This document shows positions 39,601-64,000 of a stretch of 64,000 nt of DNA, in pieces. The notes under the pieces are model-generated. The model saw only the letters and a list, made by a program, of their open reading frames with translations, did not search any database and was not told the DNA's origin. Origin of the DNA: Lingula anatina (lineage: Eukaryota > Animalia > Brachiopoda); the NCBI GenBank assembly GCA_051362555.1, contig CM120642.1, positions 12,152,001 through 12,216,000 on the forward strand. The letters run 5' to 3'. Positions within the stretch are counted from its first letter, which is position 1; every line of letters starts with the position of its first letter. The translations under genes were made by a program, and so were the position numbers.

Positions 39601-42600
39601 ATGAAGAAAAAAATTTTTCAACCCTACCTGGCCAAAATTGAAGAAAACTGCCATATCCGGACCTTACGAAAATCACTCAAAATCACCCAAAAATGACCCG
39701 TCACCAAATTTTCCAAAAAGTGATGAAAATCAATCTACCACACCTGTCATTCATAAAAAATGTGGAAACGCGCCCGGATCACTTCATTAAAGCCCCCAAT
39801 TTCAGCTTTAAAGATGGCCAAAAAGCACACCTGAGAACAGGATTTGGAGAGAGGGGGGGTGGAGAGAGTTTTTGCTCTATTTCTTCCTTAATAATGACAC
39901 AACCACTCTTCCAGCACTTTATTCTGACTACAAATGACCAAACACACCTACCAGACACTATAATGAAGAAAAAAATTTTTCAACCCTACCTGGCCAAAAT
40001 TGAAGAAAACTGCCATATCCGGACCTTACGAAAATCACTCAAAATCACCCAAAAATGACCCGTCACCAAATTTCCAAAAGTGATGAAAATCAATCTACCA
40101 CACCTGTCATTCATAAAAAATGTGGAAACGCGCCCGGATCACTTCATTAAAGCCCCCAATTTCAGCTTTAAAGATGGCCAAAAAGCACACCTGAGAACAG
40201 GATTTGGAGAGAGGGGGGGTGGAGAGAGTTTTTGCTCTATTTCTTCCTTAATAATGACACAACCACTCTTCCAGCACTTTATTCTGACTACAAATGACCA
40301 AACACACCTACCAGACACTATAATGAAGAAAAAAATTTTTCAACCCTACCTGGCCAAAATTGAAGAAAACTGCCATATCCGGACCTTACGAAAATCACTC
40401 AAAATCACCCAAAAATGACCCGTCACCAAATTTTCCAAAAAGTGATGAAAATCAATCTACCACACCTGTCATTCATAAAAAATGTGGAAACGCGCCCGGA
40501 TCACTTCATTAAAGCCCCCAATTTCAGCTTTAAAGATGGCCAAAAAGCACACCTGAGAACAGGATTTGGAGAGAGGGGGGGTGGAGAGAGTTTTTGCTCT
40601 ATTTCTTCCTTAATAATGACACAACCACTCTTCCAGCACTTTATTCTGACTACAAATGACCAAACACACCTACCAGACACTATAATGAAGAAAAAAATTT
40701 TTCAACCCTACCTGGCCAAAATTGAAGAAAACTGCCATATCCGGACCTTACGAAAATCACTCAAAATCACCCAAAAATGACCCGTCACCAAATTTTCCAA
40801 AAAGTGATGAAAATCAATCTACCACACCTGTCATTCATAAAAAATGTGGAAACGCGCCCGGATCACTTCATTAAAGCCCCCAATTTCAGCTTTAAAGATG
40901 GCCAAAAAGCACACCTGAGAACAGGATTTGGAGAGAGGGGGGGTGGAGAGAGTTTTTGCTCTATTTCTTCCTTAATAATGACACAACCACTCTTCCAGCA
41001 CTTTATTCTGACTACAAATGACCAAACACACCTACCAGACACTATAATGAAGAAAAAAATTTTTCAACCCTACCTGGCCAAAATTGAAGAAAACTGCCAT
41101 ATCCGGACCTTACGAAAATCACTCAAAATCACCCAAAAATGACCCGTCACCAAATTTTCCAAAAAGTGATGAAAATCAATCTACCACACCTGTCATTCAT
41201 AAAAAATGTGGAAACGCGCCCGGATCACTTCATTAAAGCCCCCAATTTCAGCTTTAAAGATGGCCAAAAAGCACACCTGAGAACAGGATTTGGAGAGAGG
41301 GGGGGTGGAGAGAGTTTTTGCTCTATTTCTTCCTTAATAATGACACAACCACTCTTCCAGCACTTTATTCTGACTACAAATGACCAAACACACCTACCAG
41401 ACACTATAATGAAGAAAAAAATTTTTCAACCCTACCTGGCCAAAATTGAAGAAAACTGCCATATCCGGACCTTACGAAAATCACTCAAAATCACCCAAAA
41501 ATGACCCGTCACCAAATTTTCCAAAAAGTGATGAAAATCAATCTACCACACCTGTCATTCATAAAAAATGTGGAAACGCGCCCGGATCACTTCATTAAAG
41601 CCCCCAATTTCAGCTTTAAAGATGGCCAAAAAGCACACCTGAGAACAGGATTTGGAGAGAGGGGGGGTGGAGAGAGTTTTTGCTCTATTTCTTCCTTAAT
41701 AATGACACAACCACTCTTCCAGCACTTTATTCTGACTACAAATGACCAAACACACCTACCAGACACTATAATGAAGAAAAAAATTTTTCAACCCTACCTG
41801 GCCAAAATTGAAGAAAACTGCCATATCCGGACCTTACGAAAATCACTCAAAATCACCCAAAAATGACCCGTCACCAAATTTTCCAAAAAGTGATGAAAAT
41901 CAATCTACCACACCTGTCATTCATAAAAAACGTGGAAACGCGCCCGGATCACTTCATTAAAGCCCCCAATTTCAGCTTTAAAGATGGCCAAAAAGCACAC
42001 CTGAGAACAGGATTTGGAGAGAGGGGGGGTGGAGAGAGTTTTTGCTCTATTTCTTCCTTAATAATGACACAACCACTCTTCCAGCACTTTATTCTGACTA
42101 CAAATGACCAAACACACCTACCAGACACTATAATGAAGAAAAAAATTTTTCAACCCTACCTGGCCAAAATTGAAGAAAACTGCCATATCCGGACCTTACG
42201 AAAATCACTCAAAATCACCCAAAAATGACCCGTCACCAAATTTTCCAAAAAGTGATGAAAATCAATCTACCACACCTGTCATTCATAAAAAATGTGGAAA
42301 CGCGCCCGGATCACTTCATTAAAGCCCCCAATTTCAGCTTTAAAGATGGCCAAAAAGCACACCTGAGAACAGGATTTGGAGAGAGGGGGGGTGGAGAGAG
42401 TTTTTGCTCTATTTCTTCCTTAATAATGACACAACCACTCTTCCAGCACTTTATTCTGACTACAAATGACCAAACACACCTACCAGACACTATAATGAAG
42501 AAAAAAATTTTTCAACCCTACCTGGCCAAAATTGAAGAAAACTGCCATATCCGGACCTTACGAAAATCACTCAAAATCACCCAAAAATGACCCGTCACCA

Positions 42601-45600
42601 AATTTTCCAAAAAGTGATGAAAATCAATCTACCACACCTGTCATTCATAAAAAATGTGGAAACGCGCCCGGATCACTTCATTAAAGCCCCCAATTTCAGC
42701 TTTAAAGATGGCCAAAAAGCACACCTGAGAACAGGATTTGGAGAGAGGGGGGGTGGAGAGAGTTTTTGCTCTATTTCTTCCTTAATAATGACACAACCAC
42801 TCTTCCAGCACTTAATTCTGACTACAAATGACCAAACACACCTACCAGACACTATAATGAAGAAAAAAATTTTTCAACCCTACCTGGCCAAAATTGAAGA
42901 AAACTGCCATATCCGGACCTTACGAAAATCACTCAAAATCACCCAAAAATGACCCGTCACCAAATTTTCCAAAAAGTGATGAAAATCAATCTACCACACC
43001 TGTCATTCATAAAAAATGTGGAAACGCGCCCGGATCACTTCATTAAAGCCCCCAATTTCAGCTTTAAAGATGGCCAAAAAGCACACCTGAGAACAGGATT
43101 TGGAGAGAGGGGGGGTGGAGAGAGTTTTTGCTCTATTTCTTCCTTAATAATGACACAACCACTCTTCCAGCACTTTATTCTGACTACAAATGACCAAACA
43201 CACCTACCAGACACTATAATGAAGAAAAAAATTTTTCAACCCTACCTGGCCAAAATTGAAGAAAACTGCCATATCCGGACCTTACGAAAATCACTCAAAA
43301 TCACCCAAAAATGACCCGTCACCAAATTTTCCAAAAAGTGATGAAAATCAATCTACCACACCTGTCATTCATAAAAAATGTGGAAACGCGCCCGGATCAC
43401 TTCATTAAAGCCCCCAATTTCAGCTTTAAAGATGGCCAAAAAGCACACCTGAGAACAGGATTTGGAGAGAGGGGGGGTGGAGAGAGTTTTTGCTCTATTT
43501 CTTCCTTAATAATGACACAACCACTCTTCCAGCACTTTATTCTGACTACAAATGACCAAACACACCTACCAGACACTATAATGAAGAAAAAAATTTTTCA
43601 ACCCTACCTGGCCAAAATTGAAGAAAACTGCCATATCCGGACCTTACGAAAATCACTCAAAATCACCCAAAAATGACCCGTCACCAAATTTTCCAAAAAG
43701 TGATGAAAATCAATCTACCACACCTGTCATTCATAAAAAACGTGGAAACGCGCCCGGATCACTTCATTAAAGCCCCCAATTTCAGCTTTAAAGATGGCCA
43801 AAAAGCACACCTGAGAACAGGATTTGGAGAGAGGGGGGGTGGAGAGAGTTTTTGCTCTATTTCTTCCTTAATAATGACACAACCTCTCTTCCAGCACTTT
43901 ATTCTGACTACAAATGACCAAACACACCTACCAGACACTATAATGAAGAAAAAAATTTTTCAACCCTACCTGGCCAAAATTGAAGAAAACTGCCATATCC
44001 GGACCTTACGAAAATCACTCAAAATCACCCAAAAATGACCCGTCACCAAATTTTCCAAAAAGTGATGAAAATCAATCTACCACACCTGTCATTCATAAAA
44101 AATGTGGAAACGCGCCCGGATCACTTCATTAAAGCCCCCAATTTCAGCTTTAAAGATGGCCAAAAAGCACACCTGAGAACAGGATTTGGAGAGAGTTTTT
44201 GCTCTATTTCTTCCTTAATAATGACACAACCACTCTTCCAGCACTTTATTCTGACTACAAATGACCAAACACACCTACCAGACACTATAATGAAGAAAAA
44301 AATTTTTCAACCCTACCTGGCCAAAATTGAAGAAAACTGCCATATCCGGACCTTACGAAAATCACTCAAAATCACCCAAAAATGACCCGTCACCAAATTT
44401 TCCAAAAAGTGATGAAAATCAATCTACCACACCTGTCATTCATAAAAAATGTGGAAACGCGCCCGGATCACTTCATTAAAGCCCCCAATTTCAGCTTTAA
44501 AGATGGCCAAAAAGCACACCTGAGAACAGGATTTGGAGAGAGGGGGGGTGGAGAGAGTTTTTGCTCTATTTCTTCCTTAATAATGACACAACCACTCTTC
44601 CAGCACTTTATTCTGACTACAAATGACCAAACACACCTACCAGACACTATAATGAAGAAAAAAATTTTTCAACCCTACCTGGCCAAAATTGAAGAAAACT
44701 GCCATATCCGAACCTTACGAAAATCACTCAACATCACCCAAAAATGACCCGTCACCAAATTTTCCAAAAAGTGATGAAAATCAATCTACCACACCTGTCA
44801 TTCATAAAAAATGTGGAAACGCGCCCGGATCACTTCATTAAAGCCCCCAATTTCAGCTTTAAAGATGGCCAAAAAGCACACCTGAGAACAGGATTTGGAG
44901 AGAGGGGGGGGTGGAGAGAGTTTTTGCTCTATTTCTTCCTTAATAATGACACAACCACTCTTCCAGCACTTTATTCTGACTACAAATGACCAAACACACC
45001 TACCAGACACTATAATGAAGAAAAAAATTTTTCAACCCTACCTGGCCAAAATTGAAGAAAACTGCCATATCCGGACCTTACGAAAATCACTCAAAATCAC
45101 CCAAAAAATGACCCGTCACCAAATTTTCCAAAAAGTGATGAAAATCAATCTACCACACCTGTCATTCATAAAAAATGTGGAAACGCGCCCGGATCACTTC
45201 ATTAAAGCCCCCAATTTCAGCTTTAAAGATGGCCAAAAAGCACACCTGAGAACAGGATTTGGAGAGAGGGGGGGTGGAGAGAGTTTTTGCTCTATTTCTT
45301 CCTTAATAATGACACAACCACTCTTCCAGCACTTTATTCTGACTACAAATGACCAAACACACCTACCAGACACTATAATGAAGAAAAAAATTTTTCAACC
45401 CTACCTGGCCAAAATTGAAGAAAACTGCCATACCTGGACCTTACGAAAATCACTCAAAATCACCCAAAAATGACCCGTCACCAAATTTTCCAAAAAGTGA
45501 TGAAAATCAATCTACCACACCTGTCATTCATAAAAAATGTGGAAACGCGCCCGGATCACTTCATTAAAGCCCCCAATTTCAGCTTTAAAGATGGCCAAAA

Positions 45601-48600
45601 AGCACACCTGAGAACAGGATTTGGAGAGAGTTTTTGCTCTATTTCTTCCTTAATAATGACACAACCACTCTTCCAGCACTTTATTCTGACTACAAATGAC
45701 CAAACACACCTACCAGACACTATAATGAAGAAAAAAATTTTTCAACCCTACCTGGCCAAAATTGAAGAAAACTGCCATATCCGGACCTTACGAAAATCAC
45801 TCAAAATCACCCAAAAATGACCCGTCACCAAATTTTCCAAAAAGTGATGAAAATCAATCTACCACACCTGTCATTCATAAAAAATGTGGAAACGCGCCCG
45901 GATCACTTCATTAAAGCCCCCAATTTCAGCTTTAAAGATGGCCAAAAAGCACACCTGAGAACAGGATTTGGAGAGAGGGGGGGTGGAGAGAGTTTTTGCT
46001 CTATTTCTTCCTTAATAATGACACAACCACTCTTCCAGCACTTTATTCTGACTACAAATGACCAAACACACCTACCAGACACTATAATGAAGAAAAAAAT
46101 TTTTCAACCCTACCTGGCCAAAATTGAAGAAAACTGCCATATCCGGACCTTACGAAAATCACTCAAAATCACCCAAAAATGACCCGTCACCAAATTTTCC
46201 AAAAAGTGATGAAAATCAATCTACCACACCTGTCATTCATAAAAAATGTGGAAACGCGCCCGGATCACTTCATTAAAGCCCCCAATTTCAGCTTTAAAGA
46301 TGGCCAAAAAGCACACCTGAGAACAGGATTTGGAGAGAGGGGGGGTGGAGAGAGTTTTTGCTCTATTTCTTCCTTAATAATGACACAACCACTCTTCCAG
46401 CACTTTATTCTGACTACAAATGACCAAACACACCTACCAGACACTATAATGAAGAAAAAAATTTTTCAACCCTACCTGGCCAAAATTGAAGAAAACTGCC
46501 ATATCCGGACCTTACGAAAATCACTCAAAATCACCCAAAAATGACCCGTCACCAAATTTTCCAAAAAGTGATGAAAATCAATCTACCACACCTGTCATTC
46601 ATAAAAAATGTGGAAACGCGCCCGGATCACTTCATTAAAGCCCCCAATTTCAGCTTTAAAGATGGCCAAAAAGCACACCTGAGAACAGGATTTGGAGAGA
46701 GGGGGGGTGGAGAGAGTTTTTGCTCTATTTCTTCCTTAATAATGACACAACCACTCTTCCAGCACTTTATTCTGACTACAAATGACCAAACACACCTACC
46801 AGACACTATAATGAAGAAAAAAATTTTTCAACCCTACCTGGCCAAAATTGAAGAAAACTGCCATATCCGGACCTTACGAAAATCACTCAAAATCACCCAA
46901 AAATGACCCGTCACCAAATTTTCCAAAAAGTGATGAAAATCAATCTACCACACCTGTCATTCATAAAAAATGTGGAAACGCGCCCGGATCACTTCATTAA
47001 AGCCCCCAATTTCAGCTTTAAAGATGGCCAAAAAGCACACCTGAGAACAGGATTTGGAGAGAGGGGGGGTGGAGAGAGTTTTTGCTCTATTTCTTCCTTA
47101 ATAATGACACAACCACTCTTCCAGCACTTTATTCTGACTACAAATGACCAAACACACCTACCAGACACTATAATGAAGAAAAAAATTTTTCAACCCTACC
47201 TGGCCAAAATTGAAGAAAACTGCCATATCCGGACCTTACGAAAATCACTCAAAATCACCCAAAAATGACCCGTCACCAAATTTTCCAAAAAGTGATGAAA
47301 ATCAATCTACCACACCTGTCATTCATAAAAAATGTGGAAACGCGCCCGGATCACTTCATTAAAGCCCCCAATTTCAGCTTTAAAGATGGCCAAAAAGCAC
47401 ACCTGAGAACAGGATTTGGAGAGAGGGGGGGTGGAGAGAGTTTTTGCTCTATTTCTTCCTTAATAATGACACAACCACTCTTCCAGCACTTTATTCTGAC
47501 TACAAATGACCAAACACACCTACCAGACCCTATAATGAAGAAAAAAATTTTTCAACCCTACCTGGCCAAAATTGAAGAAAACTGCCATATCCGGACCTTA
47601 CGAAAATCACTCAAAATCACCCAAAAATGACCCGTCACCAAATTTTCCAAAAAGTGATGAAAATCAATCTACCACACCTGTCATTCATAAAAAATGTGGA
47701 AACGCGCCCGGATCACTTCATTAAAGCCCCCAATTTCAGCTTTAAAGATGGCCAAAAAGCACACCTGAGAACAGGATTTGGAGAGAGGGGGGGTGGAGAG
47801 AGTTTTTGCTCTATTTCTTCCTTAATAATGACACAACCACTCTTCCAGCACTTTATTCTGACTACAAATGACCAAACACACCTACCAGACACTATAATGA
47901 AGAAAAAAATTTTTCAACCCTACCTGGCCAAAATTGAAGAAAACTGCCATATCCGGACCTTACGAAAATCACTCAAAATCACCCAAAAATGACCCGTCAC
48001 CAAATTTTCCAAAAAGTGATGAAAATCAATCTACCACACCTGTCATTCATAAAAAATGTGGAAACGCGCCCGGATCACTTCATTAAAGCCCCCAATTTCA
48101 GCTTTAAAGATGGCCAAAAAGCACACCTGAGAACAGGATTTGGAGAGAGGGGGGGTGGAGAGAGTTTTTGCTCTATTTCTTCCTTAATAATGACACAACC
48201 ACTCTTCCAGCACTTTATTCTGACTACAAATGACCAAACACACCTACCAGACACTATAATGAAGAAAAAAATTTTTCAACCCTACCTGGCCAAAATTGAA
48301 GAAAACTGCCATATCCGGACCTTACGAAAATCACTCAAAATCACCCAAAAATGACCCGTCACCAAATTTTCCAAAAAGTGATGAAAATCAATCTACCACA
48401 CCTGTCATTCATAAAAAATGTGGAAACGCGCCCGGATCACTTCATTAAAGCCCCCAATTTCAGCTTTAAAGATGGCCAAAAAGCACACCTGAGAACAGGA
48501 TTTGGAGAGGGGGGGGGTGGAGAGAGTTTTTGCTCTATTTCTTCCTTAATAATGACACAACCACTCTTCCAGCACTTTATTCTGACTACAAATGACCAAA

Positions 48601-51600
48601 CACACCTACCAGACACTATAATGAAGAAAAAAATTTTTCAACCCTACCTGGCCAAAATTGAAGAAAACTGCCATATCCGGACCTTACGAAAATCACTCAA
48701 AATCACCCAAAAATGACCCGTCACCAAATTTTCCAAAAAGTGATGAAAATCAATCTACCACACCTGTCATTCATAAAAAATGTGGAAACGCGCCCGGATC
48801 ACTTCATTAAAGCCCCCAATTTCAGCTTTAAAGATGGCCAAAAAGCACACCTGAGAACAGGATTTGGAGAGAGGGGGGGTGGAGAGAGTTTTTGCTCTAT
48901 TTCTTCCTTAATAATGACACAACCACTCTTCCAGCACTTTATTCTGACTACAAATGACCAAACACACCTACCAGACACTATAATGAAGAAAAAAATTTTT
49001 CAACCCTACCTGGCCAAAATTGAAGAAAACTGCCATATCCGGACCTTACGAAAATCACTCAAAATCACCCAAAAATGACCCGTCACCAAATTTTCCAAAA
49101 AGTGATGAAAATCAATCTACCACACCTGTCATTCATAAAAAATGTGGAAATGCGCCCGGATCACTTCATTAAAGCCCCCAATTTCAGCTTTAAAGATGGC
49201 CAAAAAGCACACCTGAGAACAGGATTTGGAGAGAGGGGGGGTGGAGAGAGTTTTTGCTCTATTTCTTCCTTAATAATGAAACAACCACTCTTCCAGCACT
49301 TTATTCTGACTACAAATGACCAAACACACCTACCAGACACTATAATGAAGAAAAAAATTTTTCAACCCTACCTGGCCAAAATTGAAGAAAACTGCCATAT
49401 CCGGACCTTACGAAAATCACTCAAAATCACCCAAAAATGACCCGTCACCAAATTTTCCAAAAAGTGATGAAAATCAATCTACCACACCTGTCATTCATAA
49501 AAAATGTGGAAACGCGCCCGGATCACTTCATTAAAGCCCCCAATTTCAGCTTTAAAGATGGCCAAAAAGCACACCTGAGAACAGGATTTGGAGAGAGGGG
49601 GGGTGGAGAGAGTTTTTGCTCTATTTCTTCCTTAATAATGACACAACCACTCTTCCAGCACTTTATTCTGACTACAAATGACCAAACACACCTACCAGAC
49701 ACTATAATGAAGAAAAAAATTTTTTAACCCTACCTGGCCAAAATTGAAGAAAACTGCCATATCCGGACCTTACGAAAATCACTCAAAATCACCCAAAAAT
49801 GACCCGTCACCAAATTTTCCAAAAAGTGATGAAAATCAATCTACCACACCTGTCATTCATAAAAAATGTGGAAACGCGCCCGGATCACTTCATTAAAGCC
49901 CCCAATTTCAGCTTTAAAGATGGCCAAAAAGCACACCTGAGAACAGGATTTGGAGAGAGGGGGGGTGGAGAGAGTTTTTGCTCTATTTCTTCCTTAATAA
50001 TGACACAACCACTCTTCCAGCACTTTATTCTGACTACAAATGACCAAACACACCTACCAGACACTATAATGAGGAAAAAAATTTTTCAACCCTACCTGGC
50101 CAAAATTGAAGAAAACTGCCATATCCGGACCTTACGAAAATCACTCAAAATCACCCAAAAATGACCCGTCACCAAATTTTCCAAAAAGTGATGAAAATCA
50201 ATCTACCACACCTGTCATTCATAAAAAATGTGGAAACGCGCCCGGATCACTTCATTAAAGCCCCCAATTTCAGCTTTAAAGATGGCCAAAAAGCACACCT
50301 GAGAACAGGATTTGGAGAGAGGGGGGGTGGAGAGAGTTTTTGCTCTATTTCTTCCTTAATAATGACACAACCACTCTTCCAGCACTTTATTCTGACTACA
50401 AATGACCAAACACACCTACCAGACACTATAATGAAGAAAAAAATTTTTCAACCCTACCTGGCCAAAATTGAAGAAAACTGCCATATCCGGACCTTACGAA
50501 AATCACTCAAAATCACCCAAAAATGACCCGTCACCAAATTTTCCAAAAAGTGATGAAAATCAATCTACCACACCTGTCATTCATAAAAAATGTGGAAACG
50601 CGCCCGGATCACTTCATTAAAGCCCCCAATTTCAGCTTTAAAGATGGCCAAAAAGCACACCTGAGAACAGGATTTGGAGAGAGGGGGGGTGGAGAGAGTT
50701 TTTGCTCTATTTCTTCCTTAATAATGACACAACCACTCTTCCAGCACTTTATTCTGACTACAAATGACCAAACACACCTACCAGACACTATAATGAAGAA
50801 AAAAATTTTTCAACCCTACCTGGCCAAAATTGAAGAAAACTGCCATATCCGGACCTTACGAAAATCACTCAAAATCACCCAAAAATGACCCGTCACCAAA
50901 TTTTCCAAAAAGTGATGAAAATCAATCTACCACACCTGTCATTCATAAAAAATGTGGAAACGCGCCCGGATCACTTCATTAAAGCCCCCAATTTCAGCTT
51001 TAAAGATGGCCAAAAAGCACACCTGAGAACAGGATTTGGAGAGAGGGGGGGTGGAGAGAGTTTTTGCTCTATTTCTTCCTTAATAATGACACAACCACTC
51101 TTCCAGCACTTTATTCTGACTACAAATGACCAAACACACCTACCAGACACTATAATGAAGAAAAAAATTTTTCAACCCTACCTGGCCAAAATTGAAGAAA
51201 ACTGCCATATCCGGACCTTACGAAAATCACTCAAAATCACCCAAAAATGACCCGTCACCAAATTTTCCAAAAAGTGATGAAAATCAATCTACCACACCTG
51301 TCATTCATAAAAAATGTGGAAACGCGCCCGGATCACTTCATTAAAGCCCCCAATTTCAGCTTTAAAGATGGCCAAAAAGCACACCTGAGAACAGGATTTG
51401 GAGAGAGGGGGGGTGGAGAGAGTTTTTGCTCTATTTCTTCCTTAATAATGACACAACCACTCTTCCAGCACTTTATTCTGACTACAAATGACCAAACACA
51501 CCTACCAGACACTATAATGAAGAAAAAAATTTTTCAACCCTACCTGGCCAAAATTGAAGAAAACTGCCATATCCGGACCTTACGAAAATCACTCAAAATC

Positions 51601-54497
51601 ACCCAAAAATGACCCGTCACCAAATTTTCCAAAAAGTGATGAAAATCAATCTACCACACCTGTCATTCATAAAAAATGTGGAAACGCGCCCGGATCACTT
51701 CATTAAAGCCCCCAATTTCAGCTTTAAAGATGGCCAAAAAGCACACCTGAGAACAGGATTTGGAGAGAGGGGGGGTGGAGAGAGTTTTTGCTCTATTTCT
51801 TCCTTAATAATGACACAACCACTCTTCCAGCACTTTATTCTGACTACAAATGACCAAACACACCTACCAGACACTATAATGAAGAAAAAAATTTTTCAAC
51901 CCTACCTGGCCAAAATTGAAGAAAACTGCCATATCCGGACCTTACGAAAATCACTCAAAATCACCCAAAAATGACCCGTCACCAAATTTTCCAAAAAGTG
52001 ATGAAAATCAATCTACCACACCTGTCATTCATAAAAAATGTGGAAACGCGCCCGGATCACTTCATTAAAGCCCCCAATTTCAGCTTTAAAGATGGCCAAA
52101 AAGCACACCTGAGAACAGGATTTGGAGAGAGGGGGGGTGGAGAGAGTTTTTGCTCTATTTCTTCCTTAATAATGACACAACCACTCTTCCAGCACTTTAT
52201 TCTGACTACAAATGACCAAACACACCTACCAGACACTATAATGAAGAAAAAAATTTTTCAACCCTACCTGGCCAAAATTGAAGAAAACTGCCATATCCGG
52301 ACCTTACGAAAATCACTCAAAATCACCCAAAAATGACCCGTCACCAAATTTTCCAAAAAGTGATGAAAATCAATCTGCCACACCTGTCATTCATAAAAAA
52401 TGTGGAAACGCGCCCGGATCACTTCATTAAAGCCCCCAATTTCAGCTTTAAAGATGGCCAAAAAGCACACCTGAGAACAGGATTTGGAGAGAGGGGGGGT
52501 GGAGAGAGTTTTTGCTCTATTTCTTCCTTAATAATGACACAACCACTCTTCCAGCACTTTATTCTGACTACAAATGACCAAACACACCTACCAGACACTA
52601 TAATGAAGAAAAAAATTTTTCAACCCTACCTGGCCAAAATTGAAGAAAACTGCCATATCCGGACCTTACGAAATTCACTCAAAATCACCCAAAAATGACC
52701 CGTCACCAAATTTTCCAAAAAGTGATGAAAATCAATCTACCACACCTGTCATTCATAAAAAATGTGGAAACGCGCCCGGATCACTTCATTAAAGCCCCCA
52801 ATTTCAGCTTTAAAGATGGCCAAAAAGCACACCTGAGAACAGGATTTGGAGAGAGGGGGGGTGGAGAGAGTTTTTGCTCTATTTCTTCCTTAATAATGAC
52901 ACAACCACTCTTCCAGCACTTTATTCTGACTACAAATGACCAAACACACCTACCAGACACTATAATGAAGAAAAAAATTTTTCAACCCTACCTGGCCAAA
53001 ATTGAAGAAAACTGCCATATCCGGACCTTACGAAAATCACTCAAAATCACCCAAAAATGACCCGTCACCAAATTTTCCAAAAAGTGATGAAAATCAATCT
53101 ACCACACCTGTCATTCATAAAAAATGTGGAAACGCGCCCGGATCACTTCATTAAAGCCCCCAATTTCAGCTTTAAAGATGGCCAAAAAGCACACCTGAGA
53201 ACAGGATTTGGAGAGAGGGGGGGTGGAGAGAGTTTTTGCTCTATTTCTTCCTTAATAATGACACAACCACTCTTCCAGCACTTTATTCTGACTACAAATG
53301 ACCAAACACACCTACCAGACACTATAATGAAGAAAAAAATTTTTCAACCCTACCTGGCCAAAATTGAAGAAAACTGCCATATCCGGACCTTACGAAAATC
53401 ACTCAAAATCACCCAAAAATGACCCGTCACCAAATTTTCCAAAAAGTGATGAAAATCAATCTACCACACCTGTCATTCATAAAAAATGTGGAAACGCGCC
53501 CGGATCACTTCATTAAAGCCCCAAATTTCAGCTTTAAAGATGGCCAAAAAGCACACCTGAGAACAGGATTTGGAGAGAGGGGGGGTGGAGAGAGTTTTTG
53601 CTCTATTTCTTCCTTAATAATGACACAACCACTCTTCCAGCACTTTATTCTGACTACAAATGACCAAACACACCTACCAGACACTATAATGAAGAAAAAA
53701 AATTTTCAACCCTACCTGGCCAAAATTGAAGAAAACTGCCATATCCGGACCTTACGAAAATCACTCAAAATCACCCAAAAATGACCCGTCACCAAATTTT
53801 CCAAAAAGTGATGAAAATCAATCTGCCACACCTGTCATTCATAAAAAATGTGGAAACGCGCCCGGATCACTTCATTAAAGCCCCCAATTTCAGCTTTAAA
53901 GATGGCCAAAAAGCACACCTGAGAACAGGATTTGGAGAGAGGGGGGGTGGAGAGAGTTTTTGCTCTATTTCTTCCTTAATAATGACACAACCACTCTTCC
54001 AGCACTTTATTCTGACTACAAATGACCAAACACACCTACCAGACACTATAATGAAGAAAAAAATTTTTCAACCCTACCTGGCCAAAATTGAAGAAAACTG
54101 CCATATCCGGACCTTACGAAAATCACTCAAAATCACCCAAAAATGACCCGTCACCAAATTTTCCAAAAAGTGATGAAAATCAATCTACCACACCTGTCAT
54201 TCATAAAAAATGTGGAAACGCGCCCGGATCACTTCATTAAAGCCCCCAATTTCAGCTTTAAAGATGGCCAAAAAGCACACCTGAGAACAGGATTTGGAGA
54301 GAGGGGGGGTGGAGAGAGTTTTTGCTCTATTTCTTCCTTAATAATGACACAACCACTCTTCCAGCACTTTATTCTGACTACAAATGACCAAACACACCTA
54401 CCAGACACTATAATGAAGAAAAAAATTTTTCAACCCTACCTGGCCAAAATTGAAGAAAACTGCCATATCCGGACCTTACGAAAATCACTCAAAATCA

Positions 54498-54505
54498 CCC
54501 AAAAA
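54498..54505 (+). repeat. Target-site duplication, left copy (CCCAAAAA)
   Basis: The empty site in other monomers reads ATCA-CCCAAAAA-TGACC. The filled site reads ATCA-CCCAAAAA-[element]-CCCAAAAA-TGACC. Confidence 0.95.
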
Positions 54506-54582
54506 CACCCTGAGCTTCAGAGATAACTTGACACTAACCTCTTCATTATAGCCTATCTTCATCGTGTCAAGTTACCTCTGAC
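54506..54582 (+). repeat. Left terminal inverted repeat (77 bp)
   Basis: Matches the reverse complement of 55046-55122 at 74 of 77 positions. The first 40 bp are identical; the mismatches are at TIR positions 41, 42 and 49. Confidence 0.97.
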
Positions 54583-54600
54583 GAAAATAGTTTGACCTAG

Positions 54601-54739
54601 TTTATATAAGCCAATCGAATCCAAGTTTCAAAATTTTTCACCAAAGTTTGGTGAAAACGCTGATTGGTTGACCGTCAATCGGTAACCCTCGGCTGATTCC
54701 GCAAGCGAGTGCATAACCGTGCACAAAGAAAGCATGGCG
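54601..54739 (+). promoter_or_regulatory. Putative promoter region upstream of the helicase remnant
   Basis: TTTATATAAG at 54601-54610, CCAATC at 54611, GATTGG at 54662, and an ATG in a good eukaryotic context (AGCATGGCG) at 54734. These are motif matches only. Confidence 0.3.
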
Positions 54740-54955
54740 TCTTCTACGAGTGACTACGTAAAATAATGTGTTAAGTTATCTCTTGATTCTTTGAAAAATA
54801 TGAGTATATCGGAATTGAAACCAGAGCAGTTTGAGGCCCTGCATCATTATCTACTGAGGGATGATGTATTTTGCGTGCTGCCCACAGGTTACGGCAAGTC
54901 CCTGATATTGAGCCTTATCTCTGATTGGTCCGGATTTGAACAAAGCGCGCTTTGA
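54734..54955 (+). pseudogene. 5' fragment of a RecQ-like superfamily 2 helicase gene (motif 0/Q motif plus Walker A), truncated
   Basis: Manual translation from ATG 54734: MASSTSDYVK*CVKLSLDSLKNMSISELKPEQFEALHHYLLRDDVFCVLPTGYGKSLI-LSLISDWSGFEQSAL*. LKPEQ..EA followed at the usual spacing by DVFCVLPTGYGKSL fits the RecQ pattern (F/L)(R/K)xxQxEA...D(V)xxxxPTGxGKSL. There is an in-frame TAA at 54764-54766. Similarity is lost after about 54907, where YQ/FQ would be expected. Confidence 0.85.
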
Positions 54956-55033
54956 CTCGTTCACGTTCATTGGCTAGATCGTTCAATGAGTCATTGAGTG
55001 CGGGCTTTAAATTTGATTGGCGGGCGGCGGGGG
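54923..55033 (-). promoter_or_regulatory. Putative Pol II promoter module inside the right end of the element (3 CCAAT boxes, GC box, AP-1-like site)
   Basis: ATTGG occurs at 54924, 54969 and 55016 (spacing 45 and 47 bp), GGGCGG at 55022 and TGAGTCA at 54987. These are motif matches only. Confidence 0.35.
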
Positions 55034-55045
55034 CAATCGAATGTG

Positions 55046-55122
55046 GTCAGAGGTAACTTGACACGATGAAGATGGGCTATTGTGAAGAGGTTAGTGTCAA
55101 GTTATCTCTGAAGCTCAGGGTG
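55046..55122 (-). repeat. Right terminal inverted repeat (77 bp)
   Basis: GTCAGAGGTAACTTGACACG...GTGTCAAGTTATCTCTGAAGCTCAGGGTG is the reverse complement of the left TIR. Confidence 0.97.
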
Positions 55123-55130
55123 CCCAAAAA
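55123..55130 (+). repeat. Target-site duplication, right copy (CCCAAAAA)
   Basis: Identical to 54498-54505. It cannot be extended to 9 bp on either side without a mismatch. Confidence 0.95.
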
Positions 55131-58100
55131 TGACCCGTCACCAAATTTTCCAAAAAGTGATGAAAATCAATCTACCACACCTGTCATTCATAAAAAATGT
55201 GGAAACGCGCCCGGATCACTTCATTAAAGCCCCCAATTTCAGCTTTAAAGATGGCCAAAAAGCACACCTGAGAACAGGATTTGGAGAGAGGGGGGGTGGA
55301 GAGAGTTTTTGCTCTATTTCTTCCTTAATAATGACACAACCACTCTTCCAGCACTTTATTCTGACTACAAATGACCAAACACACCTACCAGACACTATAA
55401 TGAAGAAAAAAATTTTTCAGCCCTACCTGGCCAAAATTGAAGAAAACTGCCATATCCGGACCTTACAAAAATCACTCAAAATCACCCAAAAATGACCCGT
55501 CACCAAATTTTTCAAAAAGTGATGAAAATCAATCTACCACACCTGTCATTCATAAAAAATGTGGAAACGCGCCCGGATCACTTCATTAAAGCCCCCAATT
55601 TCAGCTTTAAAGATGGCCAAAAAGCACACCTGAGAACAGGATTTGGAGAGAGGGGGGGTGGAGAGAGTTTTTGCTCTATTTCTTCCTTAATAATGACACA
55701 ACCACTCTTCCAGCACTTTATTCTGACTACAAATGACCAAACACACCTACCAGACACTATAATGAAGAAAAAAATTAACCCTACCTGGCCAAAATTGAAG
55801 AAAACTGCCATATCCGGACCTTACGAAAATCACTCAAAATCACCCAAAAATGACCCGTCACCAAATTTTCCAAAAAGTGATGAAAATCAATCTACCACAC
55901 CTGTCATTCATAAAAAATGTGGAAACGCGCCCGGATCACTTCATTAAAGCCCCCAATTTCAGCTTTAAAGATGGCCAAAAAGCACACCTGAGAACAGGAT
56001 TTGGAGAGAGGGGGGGTGGAGAGAGTTTTTGCTCTATTTCTTCCTTAATAATGACACAACCACTCTTCCAGCACTTTATTCTGACTACAAATGACCAAAC
56101 ACACCTACCAGACACTATAATGAAGAAAAAAATTTTTCAACCCTACCTGGCCAAAATTGAAGAAAACTGCCATATCCGGACCTTACGAAAATCACTCAAA
56201 ATCACCCAAAAATGACCCGTCACCAAATTTTCCAAAAAGTGATGAAAATCAATCTACCACACCTGTCATTCATAAAAAATGTGGAAACGCGCCCGGATCA
56301 CTTCATTAAAGCCCCCAATTTCAGCTTTAAAGATGGCCAAAAAGCACACCTGAGAACAGGATTTGGAGAGAGGGGGGGTGGAGAGAGTTTTTGCTCTATT
56401 TCTTCCTTAATAATGACACAACCACTCTTCCAGCACTTTATTCTGACTACAAATGACCAAACACACCTACCAGACACTATAATGAAGAAAAAAATTTTTC
56501 AACCCTACCTGGCCAAAATTGAAGAAAACTGCCATATCCGGACCTTACGAAAATCACTCAAAATCACCCAAAAATGACCCGTCACCAAATTTTCCAAAAA
56601 GTGATGAAAATCAATCTACCACACCTGTCATTCATAAAAAATGTGGAAACGCGCCCGGATCACTTCATTAAAGCCCCCAATTTCAGCTTTAAAGATGGCC
56701 AAAAAGCACACCTGAGAACAGGATTTGGAGAGAGGGGGGGTGGAGAGAGTTTTTGCTCTATTTCTTCCTTAATAATGACACAACCACTCTTCCAGCACTT
56801 TATTCTGACTACAAATGACCAAACACACCTACCAGACACTATAATGAAGAAAAAAATTTTTCAACCCTACCTGGCCAAAATTGAAGAAAACTGCCATATC
56901 CGGACCTTACGAAAATCACTCAAAATCACCCAAAAATGACCCGTCACCAAATTTTCCAAAAAGTGATGAAAATCAATCTACCACACCTGTCATTCATAAA
57001 AAATGTGGAAACGCGCCCGGATCACTTCATTAAAGCCCCCAATTTCAGCTTTAAAGATGGCCAAAAAGCACACCTGAGAACAGGATTTGGAGAGAGGGGG
57101 GGTGGAGAGAGTTTTTGCTCTATTTCTTCCTTAATAATGACACAACCACTCTTCCAGCACTTTATTCTGACTACAAATGACCAAACACACCTACCAGACA
57201 CTATAATGAAGAAAAAAATTTTTCAACCCTACCTGGCCAAAATTGAAGAAAACTGCCATATCCGGACCTTACGAAAATCACTCAAAATCACCCAAAAATG
57301 ACCCGTCACCAAATTTTCCAAAAAGTGATGAAAATCAATCTACCACACCTGTCATTCATAAAAAATGTGGAAACGCGCCCGGATCACTTCATTAAAGCCC
57401 CCAATTTCAGCTTTAAAGATGGCCAAAAAGCACACCTGAGAACAGGATTTGGAGAGAGGGGGGGTGGAGAGAGTTTTTGCTCTATTTCTTCCTTAATAAT
57501 GACACAACCACTCTTCCAGCACTTTATTCTGACTACAAATGACCAAACACACCTACCAGACACTATAATGAAGAAAAAAATTTTTCAACCCTACCTGGCC
57601 AAAATTGAAGAAAACTGCCATATCCGGACCTTACGAAAATCACTCAAAATCACCCAAAAATGACCCGTCACCAAATTTTCCAAAAAGTGATGAAAATCAA
57701 TCTACCACACCTGTCATTCATAAAAAATGTGGAAACGCGCCCGGATCACTTCATTAAAGCCCCCAATTTCAGCTTTAAAGATGGCCAAAAAGCACACCTG
57801 AGAACAGGATTTGGAGAGAGGGGGGGTGGAGAGAGTTTTTGCTCTATTTCTTCCTTAATAATGACACAACCACTCTTCCAGCACTTTATTCTGACTACAA
57901 ATGACCAAACACACCTACCAGACACTATAATGAAGAAAAAAATTTTTCAACCCTACCTGGCCAAAATTGAAGAAAACTGCCATATCCGGACCTTACGAAA
58001 ATCACTCAAAATCACCCAAAAATGACCCGTCACCAAATTTTCCAAAAAGTGATGAAAATCAATCTACCACACCTGTCATTCATAAAAAATGTGGAAACGC

Positions 58101-61100
58101 GCCCGGATCACTTCATTAAAGCCCCCAATTTCAGCTTTAAAGATGGCCAAAAAGCACACCTGAGAACAGGATTTGGAGAGAGGGGGGGTGGAGAGAGTTT
58201 TTGCTCTATTTCTTCCTTAATAATGACACAACCACTCTTCCAGCACTTTATTCTGACTACAAATGACCAAACACACCTACCAGACACTATAATGAAGAAA
58301 AAAATTTTTCAACCCTACCTGGCCAAAATTGAAGAAAACTGCCATATCCGGACCTTACGAAAATCACTCAAAATCACCCAAAAATGACCCGTCACCAAAT
58401 TTTCCAAAAAGTGATGAAAATCAATCTACCACACCTGTCATTCATAAAAAATGTGGAAACGCGCCCGGATCACTTCATTAAAGCCCCCAATTTCAGCTTT
58501 AAAGATGGCCAAAAAGCACACCTGAGAACAGGATTTGGAGAGAGGGGGGGTGGAGAGAGTTTTTGCTCTATTTCTTCCTTAATAATGACACAACCACTCT
58601 TCCAGCACTTTATTCTGACTACAAATGACCAAACACACCTACCAGACACTATAATGAAGAAAAAAATTTTTCAACCCTACCTGGCCAAAATTGAAGAAAA
58701 CTGCCATATCCGGACCTTACGAAAATCACTCAAAATCACCCAAAAATGACCCGTCACCAAATTTTCCAAAAAGTGATGAAAATCAATCTACCACACCTGT
58801 CATTCATAAAAAATGTGGAAACGCGCCCGGATCACTTCATTAAAGCCCCCAATTTCAGCTTTAAAGATGGCCAAAAAGCACACCTGAGAACAGGATTTGG
58901 AGAGAGGGGGGGTGGAGAGAGTTTTTGCTCTATTTCTTCCTTAATAATGACACAACCACTCTTCCAGCACTTTATTCTGACTACAAATGACCAAACACAC
59001 CTACCAGACACTATAATGAAGAAAAAAATTTTTCAACCCTACCTGGCCAAAATTGAAGAAAACTGCCATATCCGGACCTTACGAAAATCACTCAAAATCA
59101 CCCAAAAATGACCCGTCACCAAATTTTCCAAAAAGTGATGAAAATCAATCTACCACACCTGTCATTCATAAAAAATGTGGAAACGCGCCCGGATCACTTC
59201 ATTAAAGCCCCCAATTTCAGCTTTAAAGATGGCCAAAAAGCACACCTGAGAACAGGATTTGGAGAGAGGGGGGGTGGAGAGAGTTTTTGCTCTATTTCTT
59301 CCTTAATAATGACACAACCACTCTTCCAGCACTTTATTCTGACTACAAATGACCAAACACACCTACCAGACACTATAATGAAGAAAAAAATTTTTCAACC
59401 CTACCTGGCCAAAATTGAAGAAAACTGCCATATCCGGACCTTACGAAAATCACTCAAAATCACCCAAAAATGACCCGTCACCAAATTTTCCAAAAAGTGA
59501 TGAAAATCAATCTACCACACCTGTCATTCATAAAAAATGTGGAAACGCGCCCGGATCACTTCATTAAAGCCCCCAATTTCAGCTTTAAAGATGGCCAAAA
59601 AGCACACCTGAGAACAGGATTTGGAGAGAGGGGGGGTGGAGAGAGTTTTTGCTCTATTTCTTCCTTAATAATGACACAACCACTCTTCCAGCACTTTATT
59701 CTGACTACAAATGACCAAACACACCTACCAGACACTATAATGAAGAAAAAAATTTTTCAACCCTACCTGGCCAAAATTGAAGAAAACTGCCATATCCGGA
59801 CCTTACGAAAATCACTCAAAATCACCCAAAAATGACCCGTCACCAAATTTTCCAAAAAGTGATGAAAATCAATCTACCACACCTGTCATTCATAAAAAAT
59901 GTGGAAACGCGCCCGGATCACTTCATTAAAGCCCCCAATTTCAGCTTTAAAGATGGCCAAAAAGCACACCTGAGAACAGGATTTGGAGAGAGGGGGGGTG
60001 GAGAGAGTTTTTGCTCTATTTCTTCCTTAATAATGACACAACCACTCTTCCAGCACTTTATTCTGACTACAAATGACCAAACACACCTACCAGACACTAT
60101 AATGAAGAAAAAAATTTTTCAACCCTACCTGGCCAAAATTGAAGAAAACTGCCATATCCGGACCTTACGAAAATCACTCAAAATCACCCAAAAATGACCC
60201 GTCACCAAATTTTCCAAAAAGTGATGAAAATCAATCTACCACACCTGTCATTCATAAAAAATGTGGAAACGCGCCCGGATCACTTCATTAAAGCCCCCAA
60301 TTTCAGCTTTAAAGATGGCCAAAAAGCACACCTGAGAACAGGATTTGGAGAGAGGGGGGGTGGAGAGAGTTTTTGCTCTATTTCTTCCTTAATAATGACA
60401 CAACCACTCTTCCAGCACTTTATTCTGACTACAAATGACCAAACACACCTACCAGACACTATAATGAAGAAAAAAATTTTTCAACCCTACCTGGCCAAAA
60501 TTGAAGAAAACTGCCATATCCGGACCTTACGAAAATCACTCAAAATCACCCAAAAATGACCCGTCACCAAATTTTCCAAAAAGTGATGAAAATCAATCTA
60601 CCACACCTGTCATTCATAAAAAATGTGGAAACGCGCCCGGATCACTTCATTAAAGCCCCCAATTTCAGCTTTAAAGATGGCCAAAAAGCACACCTGAGAA
60701 CAGGATTTGGAGAGAGGGGGGGTGGAGAGAGTTTTTGCTCTATTTCTTCCTTAATAATGACACAACCACTCTTCCAGCACTTTATTCTGACTACAAATGA
60801 CCAAACACACCTACCAGACACTATAATGAAGAAAAAAATTTTTCAACCCTACCTGGCCAAAATTGAAGAAAACTGCCATATCCGGACCTTACGAAAATCA
60901 CTCAAAATCACCCAAAAATGACCCGTCACCAAATTTTCCAAAAAGTGATGAAAATCAATCTACCACACCTGTCATTCATAAAAAATGTGGAAACGCGCCC
61001 GGATCACTTCATTAAAGCCCCCAATTTCAGCTTTAAAGATGGCCAAAAAGCACACCTGAGAACAGGATTTGGAGAGAGGGGGGGTGGAGAGAGTTTTTGC

Positions 61101-64000
61101 TCTATTTCTTCCTTAATAATGACACAACCACTCTTCCAGCACTTTATTCTGACTACAAATGACCAAACACACCTACCAGACACTATAATGAAGAAAAAAA
61201 TTTTTCAACCCTACCTGGCCAAAATTGAAGAAAACTGCCATATCCGGACCTTACGAAAATCACTCAAAATCACCCAAAAATGACCCGTCACCAAATTTTC
61301 CAAAAAGTGATGAAAATCAATCTACCACACCTGTCATTCATAAAAAATGTGGAAACGCGCCCGGATCACTTCATTAAAGCCCCCAATTTCAGCTTTAAAG
61401 ATGGCCAAAAAGCACACCTGAGAACAGGATTTGGAGAGAGGGGGGGTGGAGAGAGTTTTTGCTCTATTTCTTCCTTAATAATGACACAACCACTCTTCCA
61501 GCACTTTATTCTGACTACAAATGACCAAACACACCTACCAGACACTATAATGAAGAAAAAAATTTTTCAACCCTACCTGGCCAAAATTGAAGAAAACTGC
61601 CATATCCGGACCTTACGAAAATCACTCAAAATCACCCAAAAATGACCCGTCACCAAATTTTCCAAAAAGTGATGAAAATCAATCTACCACACCTGTCATT
61701 CATAAAAAATGTGGAAACGCGCCCGGATCACTTCATTAAAGCCCCCAATTTCAGCTTTAAAGATGGCCAAAAAGCACACCTGAGAACAGGATTTGGAGAG
61801 AGGGGGGGTGGAGAGAGTTTTTGCTCTATTTCTTCCTTAATAATGACACAACCACTCTTCCAGCACTTTATTCTGACTACAAATGACCAAACACACCTAC
61901 CAGACACTATAATGAAGAAAAAAATTTTTCAACCCTACCTGGCCAAAATTGAAGAAAACTGCCATATCCGGACCTTACGAAAATCACTCAAAATCACCCA
62001 AAAATGACCCGTCACCAAATTTTCCAAAAAGTGATGAAAATCAATCTACCACACCTGTCATTCATAAAAAATGTGGAAACGCGCCCGGATCACTTCATTA
62101 AAGCCCCCAATTTCAGCTTTAAAGATGGCCAAAAAGCACACCTGAGAACAGGATTTGGAGAGAGGGGGGGTGGAGAGAGTTTTTGCTCTATTTCTTCCTT
62201 AATAATGACACAACCACTCTTCCAGCACTTTATTCTGACTACAAATGACCAAACACACCTACCAGACACTATAATGAAGAAAAAAATTTTTCAACCCTAC
62301 CTGGCCAAAATTGAAGAAAACTGCCATATCCGGACCTTACGAAAATCACTCAAAATCACCCAAAAATGACCCGTCACCAAATTTTCCAAAAAGTGATGAA
62401 AATCAATCTACCACACCTGTCATTCATAAAAAATGTGGAAACGCGCCCGGATCACTTCATTAAAGCCCCCAATTTCAGCTTTAAAGATGGCCAAAAAGCA
62501 CACCTGAGAACAGGATTTGGAGAGAGGGGGGGTGGAGAGAGTTTTTGCTCTATTTCTTCCTTAATAATGACACAACCACTCTTCCAGCACTTTATTCTGA
62601 CTACAAATGACCAAACACACCTACCAGACACTATAATGAAGAAAAAAATTTTTCAACCCTACCTGGCCAAAATTGAAGAAAACTGCCATATCCGGACCTT
62701 ACGAAAATCACTCAAAATCACCCAAAAATGACCCGTCACCAAATTTTCCAAAAAGTGATGAAAATCAATCTACCACACCTGTCATTCATAAAAAATGTGG
62801 AAACGCGCCCGGATCACTTCATTAAAGCCCCCAATTTCAGCTTTAAAGATGGCCAAAAAGCACACCTGAGAACAGGATTTGGAGAGAGGGGGGGTGGAGA
62901 GAGTTTTTGCTCTATTTCTTCCTTAATAATGACACAACCACTCTTCCAGCACTTTATTCTGACTACAAATGACCAAACACACCTACCAGACACTATAATG
63001 AAGAAAAAAATTTTTCAACCCTACCTGGCCAAAATTGAAGAAAACTGCCATATCCGGACCTTACGAAAATCACTCAAAATCACCCAAAAATGACCCGTCA
63101 CCAAATTTTCCAAAAAGTGATGAAAATCAATCTACCACACCTGTCATTCATAAAAAATGTGGAAACGCGCCCGGATCACTTCATTAAAGCCCCCAATTTC
63201 AGCTTTAAAGATGGCCAAAAAGCACACCTGAGAACAGGATTTGGAGAGAGGGGGGGTGGAGAGAGTTTTTGCTCTATTTCTTCCTTAATAATGACACAAC
63301 CACTCTTCCAGCACTTTATTCTGACTACAAATGACCAAACACACCTACCAGACACTATAATGAAGAAAAAAATTTTTCAACCCTACCTGGCCAAAATTGA
63401 AGAAAACTGCCATATCCGGACCTTACGAAAATCACTCAAAATCACCCAAAAATGACCCGTCACCAAATTTTCCAAAAAGTGATGAAAATCAATCTACCAC
63501 ACCTGTCATTCATAAAAAATGTGGAAACGCGCCCGGATCACTTCATTAAAGCCCCCAATTTCAGCTTTAAAGATGGCCAAAAAGCACACCTGAGAACAGG
63601 ATTTGGAGAGAGGGGGGGTGGAGAGAGTTTTTGCTCTATTTCTTCCTTAATAATGACACAACCACTCTTCCAGCACTTTATTCTGACTACAAATGACCAA
63701 ACACACCTACCAGACACTATAATGAAGAAAAAAATTTTTCAACCCTACCTGGCCAAAATTGAAGAAAACTGCCATATCCGGACCTTACGAAAATCACTCA
63801 AAATCACCCAAAAATGACCCGTCACCAAATTTTCCAAAAAGTGATGAAAATCAATCTACCACACCTGTCATTCATAAAAAATGTGGAAACGCGCCCGGAT
63901 CACTTCATTAAAGCCCCCAATTTCAGCTTTAAAGATGGCCAAAAAGCACACCTGAGAACAGGATTTGGAGAGAGGGGGGGTGGAGAGAGTTTTTGCTCTA
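55123..64000. repeat. 362-bp tandem satellite array, right part (about 24.5 monomers)
   Basis: Same monomer and orientation. Register resumes exactly after the insertion (55130-54143 = 987 = 362 + 617 + 8). The array runs off the right edge. Confidence 0.99.

What the first reader, a model, noticed from the sequence alone, without database searches (positions are those of the whole stretch)
54498..55130. A lone 617-bp TIR transposon in the satellite carries a hidden RecQ-like helicase remnant, implying a helicase-encoding parent element
Seen: 77-bp TIRs, an exact 8-bp TSD confirmed by the many empty sites in the same array, and a reading frame from ATG 54734 encoding RecQ-type motif 0 and Walker A (LKPEQFEA...DVFCVLPTGYGKSLI) that breaks off just after Walker A. 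Established: AcademH, a lineage of the Academ DNA transposon superfamily in animals and fungi, encodes a RecQ-related superfamily 2 helicase in addition to a transposase. Inference: this is an internal-deletion derivative that joins the left end (promoter plus first ~58 helicase codons) of such an element to its right end near 54908. An autonomous partner with the same ends should exist, or have recently existed, in this genome.
Basis: partly seen in the sequence, partly recalled or inferred. Interest (0 to 1): 0.8.

Follow-up and report, generated by a model that had tools for sequence, protein, structure and literature searches.

The report
Helicase-stub mini-transposon in satellite DNA
A 617-base jumping-DNA element that landed once in a satellite array keeps the first ~60 codons of a DNA-unwinding (RecQ-like) gene and is likely a gutted, multi-copy derivative of a helicase-carrying transposon similar to the known AcademH type; its 8-base insertion scar is one base shorter than that type's, so its parent remains unidentified.

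Summary
The element is real: 54506-55122, 77-bp TIRs (74/77), an 8-bp TSD, and one insertion among about 175 satellite units. The helicase stub is real (PDB WRN E 6e-4; 45.7 bits on a profile of short-N-terminus invertebrate/fish RecQ-like helicases against 30.2 on canonical RecQ). Corrections: this copy has an in-frame stop at codon 11, which other copies lack; homology runs to about 54921, not 54908; and the element is a multi-copy family with several other deleted forms. Related loci show the same design: a TIR end, then a helicase start about 200 nt inward. It works like a non-autonomous AcademH derivative, but I do not file it there. AcademH makes 9-10-bp TSDs, whereas CACC ends with an 8-bp TSD match fungal Dileera (KDZ) families. 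No transposase or full-length parent was found. The scan has noted similar AcademH-like derivatives on other DNA before.

The parts
1..54505 (.). 362-bp satellite array, left part (host of the insertion)
   Evidence: TRF period 362, 150.8 copies, 99% matches
54498..54505 (+). Left copy of the 8-bp target site duplication CCCAAAAA
   Evidence: Single copy in the empty units; filled spacing 987
54506..54582 (+). Left TIR, 77 bp, starting CACCCTGAG; an 11-bp cap followed by two inverted 18-bp motifs
   Evidence: 74/77 complementary to the right TIR; inner repeats
54517..54581 (.). Inverted pair of an 18-bp motif (54517-54534 and 54564-54581, 29 nt apart); likely transposase-binding sites (inference)
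   Evidence: I2, 94%; mirrored in the right TIR (I3)
54603..54667 (+). Promoter-like stretch before the ATG: TATATA at 54603, CCAAT at 54611, ATTGG at 54663 (function inferred)
   Evidence: five CCAAT boxes in the inner 463 bp against 1.35 expected, P=0.008
54734..54921 (+). 5' stub of a RecQ-like SF2 helicase, about 63 codons, holding motif 0 and Walker A; TAA at codon 11 in this copy
54768..54785 (-). Third, degenerate copy of the TIR 18-mer (15/18) inside helicase codons 12-18
   Evidence: 0 of 1000 shuffles reach 15
54916..54925 (.). Inferred deletion junction between the left part and the right-end segment
   Evidence: Protein homology ends here; other forms join into 54922 (table 5)
54922..55045 (-). 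Right subterminal segment with three CCAAT boxes on the minus strand (54924, 54969, 55016) and a GC-rich box near 55019-55033; likely the promoter of a lost convergent gene (inference)
   Evidence: Sequence, counts; no coding match in the five other frames among session proteins
55046..55122 (-). Right TIR, with the inverted 18-mer pair at 55047-55064 and 55094-55111
55123..55130 (+). Right copy of the 8-bp TSD
55123..64000 (.). 362-bp satellite array, right part, resuming in register
   Evidence: TRF 24.5 copies

Best explanation
This is a gene-less 617-bp TIR element with a RecQ-like helicase stub, likely made by internal deletion of a helicase-plus-transposase parent of AcademH-like design (probably with an Academ-type transposase) and moved in trans by that parent's enzyme. 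Shown: the ends, the 8-bp duplication, the stub from its own ATG to about codon 63, many copies and other deleted forms. Inferred steps: (1) The parent had a left TIR, a CCAAT promoter and the helicase gene, and a right TIR with a CCAAT/GC promoter driving a convergent transposase gene. (2) A deletion joined helicase codon ~63 to a point upstream of the transposase start, so no transposase codons remain. (3) The transposase binds the paired 18-bp motifs in each end, cuts at the CACC..GGTG termini and inserts with an 8-nt stagger. (4) One copy landed in a satellite unit and has not been spread by array homogenisation within this window. The stub holds only motif 0 and Walker A and cannot be a working helicase.
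For: The stub scores 45.7 bits on a profile of 27 short-N-terminus RecQ-like helicases against 30.2 on 25 canonical RecQ proteins. Its Walker A begins at residue 50; 22 of those 27 helicases have it at 38-62. In the tree it lies in a 95/83 set with 20 such helicases, and the 20 canonical RecQ rows are split off at 98/96. Named relatives come from corals, hemichordates, lancelets, teleosts and molluscs, often several per species, and mostly lack the RecQ zinc-binding, RQC and HRDC domains. The same design recurs elsewhere. L056 is an ~0.8-kb element with 85-bp TIRs, an inner inverted repeat 30 nt apart and a helicase remnant. L014 has a TAG end, a helicase remnant about 200 nt inward and a convergent zinc-finger-like ORF (zf-AD E 0.002, below cut-off). 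L007 holds a nested TAG..CTA mini-element with a 9-bp TSD. RecQ helicase in Academ is in print (PMC3627910; PMC10045372). Single contigs on the element reach depths of 5,692-12,208 against about 50-150 for most long contigs listed for that run, and other forms join 54628 or 54651 to 54922 and 54657 to 54950.
Against: The TSD is 8 bp, not the 9-10 bp reported for AcademH, though only one site could be measured. In Marasmius, 6 of 6 Academ families start with TAG and have 9-bp TSDs (one marked uncertain), while the 7 Dileera rows shown start with CACCT and have 8-bp TSDs. No Academ transposase was seen beside any of these helicases: 0 of 18 ORFs from related loci hit a transposase family. None of the 1,154 RNA reads laid from two runs left the element near 54907-54921 into further helicase sequence. 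The profile and tree sets were gathered starting from this peptide, so they are partly circular. The stub fills only 28% of the tree columns, and RECQ5 and vertebrate WRN were not in the canonical set.
Confidence: 0.55

Rival explanations
1. The parent is a KDZ (Dileera/Zisupton-type) transposon that natively carries a RecQ-like helicase as an accessory gene; the 617-bp form is its deletion derivative.
For: CACC ends, an 8-bp TSD and long TIRs match the Marasmius Dileera families (7 rows, TIRs 98-254 bp). Zisupton and KDZ1 make 8-bp TSDs, and KDZ elements often carry accessory genes. The closest helicase locus, L005 (61% identity), has the same first 9 bases, CACCCTGAG, 187 nt before its ATG; this is the only such 9-mer in 35.7 kb of 12 animal-like loci.
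Against: KDZ termini vary (GACC, CAGA, CGGA, GCCT and GGGG), so CACC is weak evidence. Beyond 9 bases the L005 match is not significant (P=0.30), and L005 has only one visible end. The inner-repeat end design is shared with the TAG-ended L014. No KDZ domain was seen near any related helicase.
Confidence: 0.17
2. An unrelated 8-bp-TSD mini-element (KDZ, hAT or P type) captured the promoter and first codons of an AcademH helicase gene; ends and stub have different origins.
For: Very short elements with the same ~25-36-bp ends and different spacers are common in the runs (tables 5 and 5c), so the ends move without the stub. The TSD length fits hAT, P and KDZ.
Against: The stub starts at its own ATG 228 nt from the terminus, the same geometry as L014, L056 and L005. 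A copy of the TIR 18-mer lies inside the coding stub (15/18, P<0.001), which suggests a long shared history. No second terminus is evident between the TIR and the ATG.
Confidence: 0.18
3. The element captured the start of a host RecQ gene.
For: The best solved-structure hits are host WRN, BLM and RECQ1. RECQ5 has a short N-terminus (recalled) and was not in the tree.
Against: Of the 47 hits among 1.84 billion representatives, those inspected are mostly short invertebrate-type first exons with GKSLI[FY]. The profile score is 15 bits lower on canonical RecQ, and a 98/96 branch excludes the stub from the canonical set.
Confidence: 0.04

Closest known systems
AcademH lineage of the Academ DNA transposon superfamily (Kojima 2020, Mob DNA 11:15; not held, known from passages of PMC10045372, PMC10799480 and PMC3627910, and from recall)
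   Same: TIR element with a RecQ-like helicase; animal host; short non-autonomous derivatives of 380-823 bp are described for Academ in Marasmius.
   Different: TSD 8 bp against 9-10 bp; CACC rather than TAG ends (Marasmius table); no transposase present to test.
KDZ transposons: Dileera of Marasmius (PMC8290104 Table S3 rows), Zisupton (PMC12730594 passages), Cryptococcus KDZ1-3 (PMC12810828 and PMC11343200 passages)
   Same: 8-bp TSD; long TIRs; CACC start as in Marasmius Dileera; accessory genes are common.
   Different: No RecQ helicase is described for KDZ in the passages seen; no KDZ or CxC coding sequence here; KDZ termini are variable.
KolobokH (PMC9587614 passages)
   Same: Encodes a RecQ helicase in a TIR transposon.
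   Different: Reported only from fungi, with one red-algal Kolobok also encoding RecQ; the Kolobok TSD is TTAA (recalled), against an 8-bp CCCAAAAA here.
MITE-like non-autonomous deletion derivatives in general
   Same: Short, multi-copy, TIR plus TSD, no working ORF.
   Different: Keeps a recognisable helicase stub and has bipartite ends with paired inverted 18-mers.

Membership tests
AcademH | RecQ-related SF2 helicase encoded inside the TIRs | tested here: met
   Stub only (motif 0 and Walker A)
AcademH | 9- or 10-bp TSD (PMC10045372) | tested here: not met
   8 bp at the single site measured; 9 or 10 bp would need 1 or 2 mismatches and shifted ends
AcademH | Academ-type DDE transposase | not testable with these tools
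   No such coding sequence in the element; no genome held
AcademH | Terminal sequence (TAG in 6 of 6 Marasmius families; 5'-YR..YR-3' recalled as the general rule) | tested here: inconclusive
   CA..TG fits the recalled YR rule but not TAG; the helicase-bearing L056 also starts with CA
AcademH | Helicase groups with Repbase AcademH helicases | not testable with these tools
   No labelled AcademH protein was available; the tree shows only exclusion from canonical RecQ
KDZ (Dileera/Zisupton) | 8-bp TSD | tested here: met
   the rule
KDZ (Dileera/Zisupton) | Terminal sequence like known families | tested here: inconclusive
   First 4 bases match Marasmius Dileera; other KDZ families start differently
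KDZ (Dileera/Zisupton) | KDZ transposase with CxC or SWIM domain | not testable with these tools
   Absent from the element; parent not found
KolobokH | TTAA target duplication (recalled) | tested here: not met
   TSD is CCCAAAAA
Canonical host RecQ | Groups with RECQ1, BLM and bacterial RecQ | tested here: not met
   Excluded by a 98/96 branch; 30.2 against 45.7 bits; RECQ5 and vertebrate WRN not sampled

The most novel reading that the evidence does not exclude
These ends belong to a KDZ/Zisupton-type transposon of marine invertebrates that carries the AcademH-type RecQ helicase: a third superfamily, after Academ and Kolobok, to have recruited this helicase, with a related CACCCTGAG-ended family beside the closest helicase in L005. 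That would make the helicase a portable transposition module and break the proposed link between helicase and 9-10-bp TSD.
Probability: 0.17. Interest if true: 0.65.

Novelty: new variant of a known kind. Interest (0 to 1): 0.33.

Why it matters
On the best reading this is a modest annotation result: a multi-copy derivative family that points to a helicase-encoding parent in an invertebrate genome. The useful point is the 8-bp TSD. The helicase of AcademH has been proposed to explain its 9-10-bp duplications (PMC10045372). A helicase-linked family with 8 bp either loosens that rule or shows the helicase riding with another transposase. The many copies and empty sites make TSD length and parent identity easy to settle once the assembly is searched.

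Tried and rejected
No whole genome was held, so the TIR-pair search for a parent could not be run. The word-indexed search of longer proteins with the 47-aa peptide found none of 35 candidates (weak evidence). TIR pattern scans found 4 viral contigs with an isolated 18-mer, which are chance matches, and 0 metagenome contigs. The L056 and L014 end motifs gave 0 and 2 viral contigs; the 2 were not examined. Prokaryotic and viral RecQ-like loci were not useful. In run X2, none of 80 contigs laid on 54800-54935 showed a loose end at 54907-54921, but contigs show presence, not absence, and a branch contig with a short overlap could be missed. RNA run X22 laid 0 reads (no test), and no RNA holder was listed in the run index. 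Rfam found nothing above chance on 54100-55600. The ESM Atlas gave the peptide only unnamed or DEAD clusters. Similarity between the L005 upstream region and the first 60 bases of the TIR was rejected beyond the 9-mer (P=0.30). Automated TIR/TSD mining in 11-12 animal-like loci found nothing, and L056 shows no TSD. A 9- or 10-bp TSD reading was rejected because it needs mismatches and asymmetric or shortened ends. P0145 lacks the N-terminal motifs and does not align. Supplement searches for the terminus found no matching element end (only 12 of 33 files were searched). Kojima 2020 and Iyer 2014 were not held.

Full report
Setting. The whole window is a 362-bp satellite, 99% identical between units, broken once at 54506-55122. 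No genome is held for it. Earlier scan notes on the same genome call the host a brachiopod (unchecked AI notes). The protein relatives found here are from marine invertebrates and fish, which is compatible.

Observation. The insert is 617 bp with 77-bp TIRs that match at 74 positions. CCCAAAAA flanks both ends. Of 174 anchor sites, 173 are empty (172 with one CCCAAAAA, 1 with an extra A), and the filled spacing is 987 = 362+617+8. The TSD is therefore 8 bp; a 9- or 10-bp reading needs mismatches. Each TIR is bipartite: an 11-bp cap, an 18-bp motif, a 29-nt spacer and the inverted motif. A third copy (15/18) lies at 54768-54785, and none of 1000 shuffles reached that score. The inner 463 bp holds five CCAAT boxes against 1.35 expected (P=0.008): two before the ATG and three on the minus strand of the right segment.

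The stub. In contigs of three public runs, about 55-80% of the summed depth at that place has G, giving Glu. One of these runs may be the window's own source. The open 47-aa piece hits WRN (E 5.8e-4), BLM and RECQ1 in the PDB and Pfam DEAD below cut-off. It has 47 hits at E<=0.001 among 1.84 billion representatives; the top one is a repetitive false hit. Most of those inspected are short first exons with LKPxQxEA..DVFxVLPTGxGKSLI[FY], including named coral and hemichordate proteins. Full-length relatives from lancelets, teleosts, corals and molluscs mostly carry DEAD and Helicase_C without the RecQ C-terminal domains, several per species. The stub scores 45.7 bits on their profile (27 of 30 chosen rows; 3 lacked the Walker A pattern) and 30.2 on canonical RecQ (25 of 26 rows); shuffles reach 2.3. 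In a 49-row tree it sits in a 95/83 set of these helicases, with the canonical RecQ rows cut off at 98/96. These sets were seeded by the peptide, the stub fills 28% of the columns, and RECQ5 and vertebrate WRN were not sampled. Homology ends at codons 61-64 in 108 of 145 alignments, and only this one of six frames matches any session protein. The junction is near 54921.

It is a family. Fourteen runs from 8 studies hold part of the element. In three runs 565-983 contigs laid on it, covering all 30 bins; a fourth run, of another organism, gave 2 contigs on the left end only. Single contigs reach depths of 5,692, 6,306 and 12,208, against about 50-150 for most long contigs listed for that run. 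This suggests tens to more than a hundred copies per variant, though depth is not a copy number. Other forms join 54628 or 54651 to 54922, 54657 to 54950 and 54736 to 54802, and very short forms keep only ~25-36 bp of each end around different spacers. RNA run X19 gave 1,045 reads on 54800-54935, about 580 with the first mate on the minus strand against 49 on the plus strand, which is sense RNA if the library is of the usual stranded kind. Most of these reads carry a distinct variant set with a 7-nt insertion at 54822-54824 that breaks the frame, so they do not come from this copy and encode no helicase. X16 gave 109 reads on both strands and X22 none. No read set continued into further helicase sequence near the junction.

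The same design elsewhere. The metagenome scan covered 3 of 64 parts and kept 80 of 152 confirmed loci; I examined 12 animal-like ones. L056 is an ~0.8-kb element with 85-bp TIRs starting CA, an inner inverted repeat 30 nt apart and a helicase remnant, with no visible TSD. L014 has a TAG end, a helicase remnant about 200 nt inward and a convergent zinc-finger-like ORF. L007 holds a 66-bp TAG..CTA element with a 9-bp TSD. L005, the best hit (61%), has CACCCTGAG 187 nt before its ATG; the window's distance is 228 nt. That 9-mer occurs once in 35.7 kb, but wider similarity is not significant (P=0.30), so it is a hint only. None of 18 ORFs tested from these loci hit a transposase family.

Mechanism. 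Most likely (0.55) a two-gene parent of AcademH-like design lost its interior between helicase codon ~63 and the promoter of a convergent transposase gene. The remnant kept both ends and was amplified in trans, and one copy entered the satellite. Binding of the 18-mers by the transposase, the promoter roles and the convergent gene are inferred. The convergent layout is also a reading in an earlier scan note and is partly seen in L014.

Comparison. AcademH makes 9- or 10-bp TSDs and AcademX 3 or 4, a difference attributed to their accessory enzymes (PMC10045372, passages). RecQ in Academ is also cited in PMC3627910 (passage), and in KolobokH in PMC9587614 (passages). In Marasmius, Academ families have TAG ends and 9-bp TSDs, and Dileera families have CACCT ends, 8-bp TSDs and long TIRs (PMC8290104, supplement rows; 23 of 24 '8 bp' places shown). 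Zisupton and KDZ1 make 8-bp TSDs (PMC12730594, PMC12810828, PMC11343200; passages), but KDZ termini vary (supplement rows). So the cargo points to AcademH and the scar and terminus lean towards KDZ, hAT or P. Because the TSD test fails, I do not file it as AcademH; it works like an AcademH derivative. An unchecked scan note reports a fungal Academ element with an 8-bp TSD and bipartite TIRs, which would remove most of the conflict, and two others report KDZ elements with other helicase-like genes. Ten paper searches and the passages read showed no KDZ element with a RecQ helicase. Kojima 2020, Iyer 2014, Bohne 2012, Repbase and Dfam could not be consulted, and Kojima's supplements may already list this family or 8-bp cases. 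Also seen as passages only: PMC10799480, PMC10294476 (12 of 33 supplements searched), PMC4455052, PMC12210899, PMC5751038 and PMC12477816; of PMC11071193, a supplement search only.

Verdict. The element is real and the stub is real. It is a non-autonomous derivative of a known style of helicase-carrying transposon, with one unexplained departure (8-bp TSD, CACC ends). Interest 0.33; a 17% chance of a RecQ-carrying KDZ lineage, which would merit about 0.65.

Noticed in passing
window 54506-54581: One contig in run X4 continues after 54581 with the 11-base terminal cap, which implies an 87-bp mini-element made of one TIR closed on itself.
   Followed up: partly
window 54736-54802: An abundant form lacks about 66 nt here (contig depth 12,208 in X2; also in RNA reads), which removes the third TIR motif; that motif is thus not needed for amplification.
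   Followed up: partly
window 54800-54935: A subfamily with a 7-nt insertion is strongly and mostly one-strandedly transcribed in run X19; it differs from this copy by four silent and three replacement changes besides shared ones.
   Followed up: partly
window 1-64000: The 362-bp satellite is very homogeneous: 104 of 149 full-length units equal the majority unit. No Rfam match. Its origin was not studied.
   Followed up: no
window 54546, 54721, 54743, 54794, 54963, 55074: This copy differs from nearly all other copies at these six places and from most at several more, roughly 1.5% in all, while its TSD and flanking satellite units are intact.
   Followed up: partly
L007:1852-3044: A ~1.2-kb stretch bounded by inverted repeats holds a RecQ-like remnant, with a 66-bp TAG..CTA element (9-bp TSD) nested in its right arm.
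   Followed up: partly
L014:7238-8343 and L066: Two related deleted elements pair a helicase start with a convergent zinc-finger-like ORF, possibly the N-terminus of the transposase.
   Followed up: partly
L005:858-1124: A separate palindromic, internally repeated mini-element lies upstream of the helicase locus.
   Followed up: no
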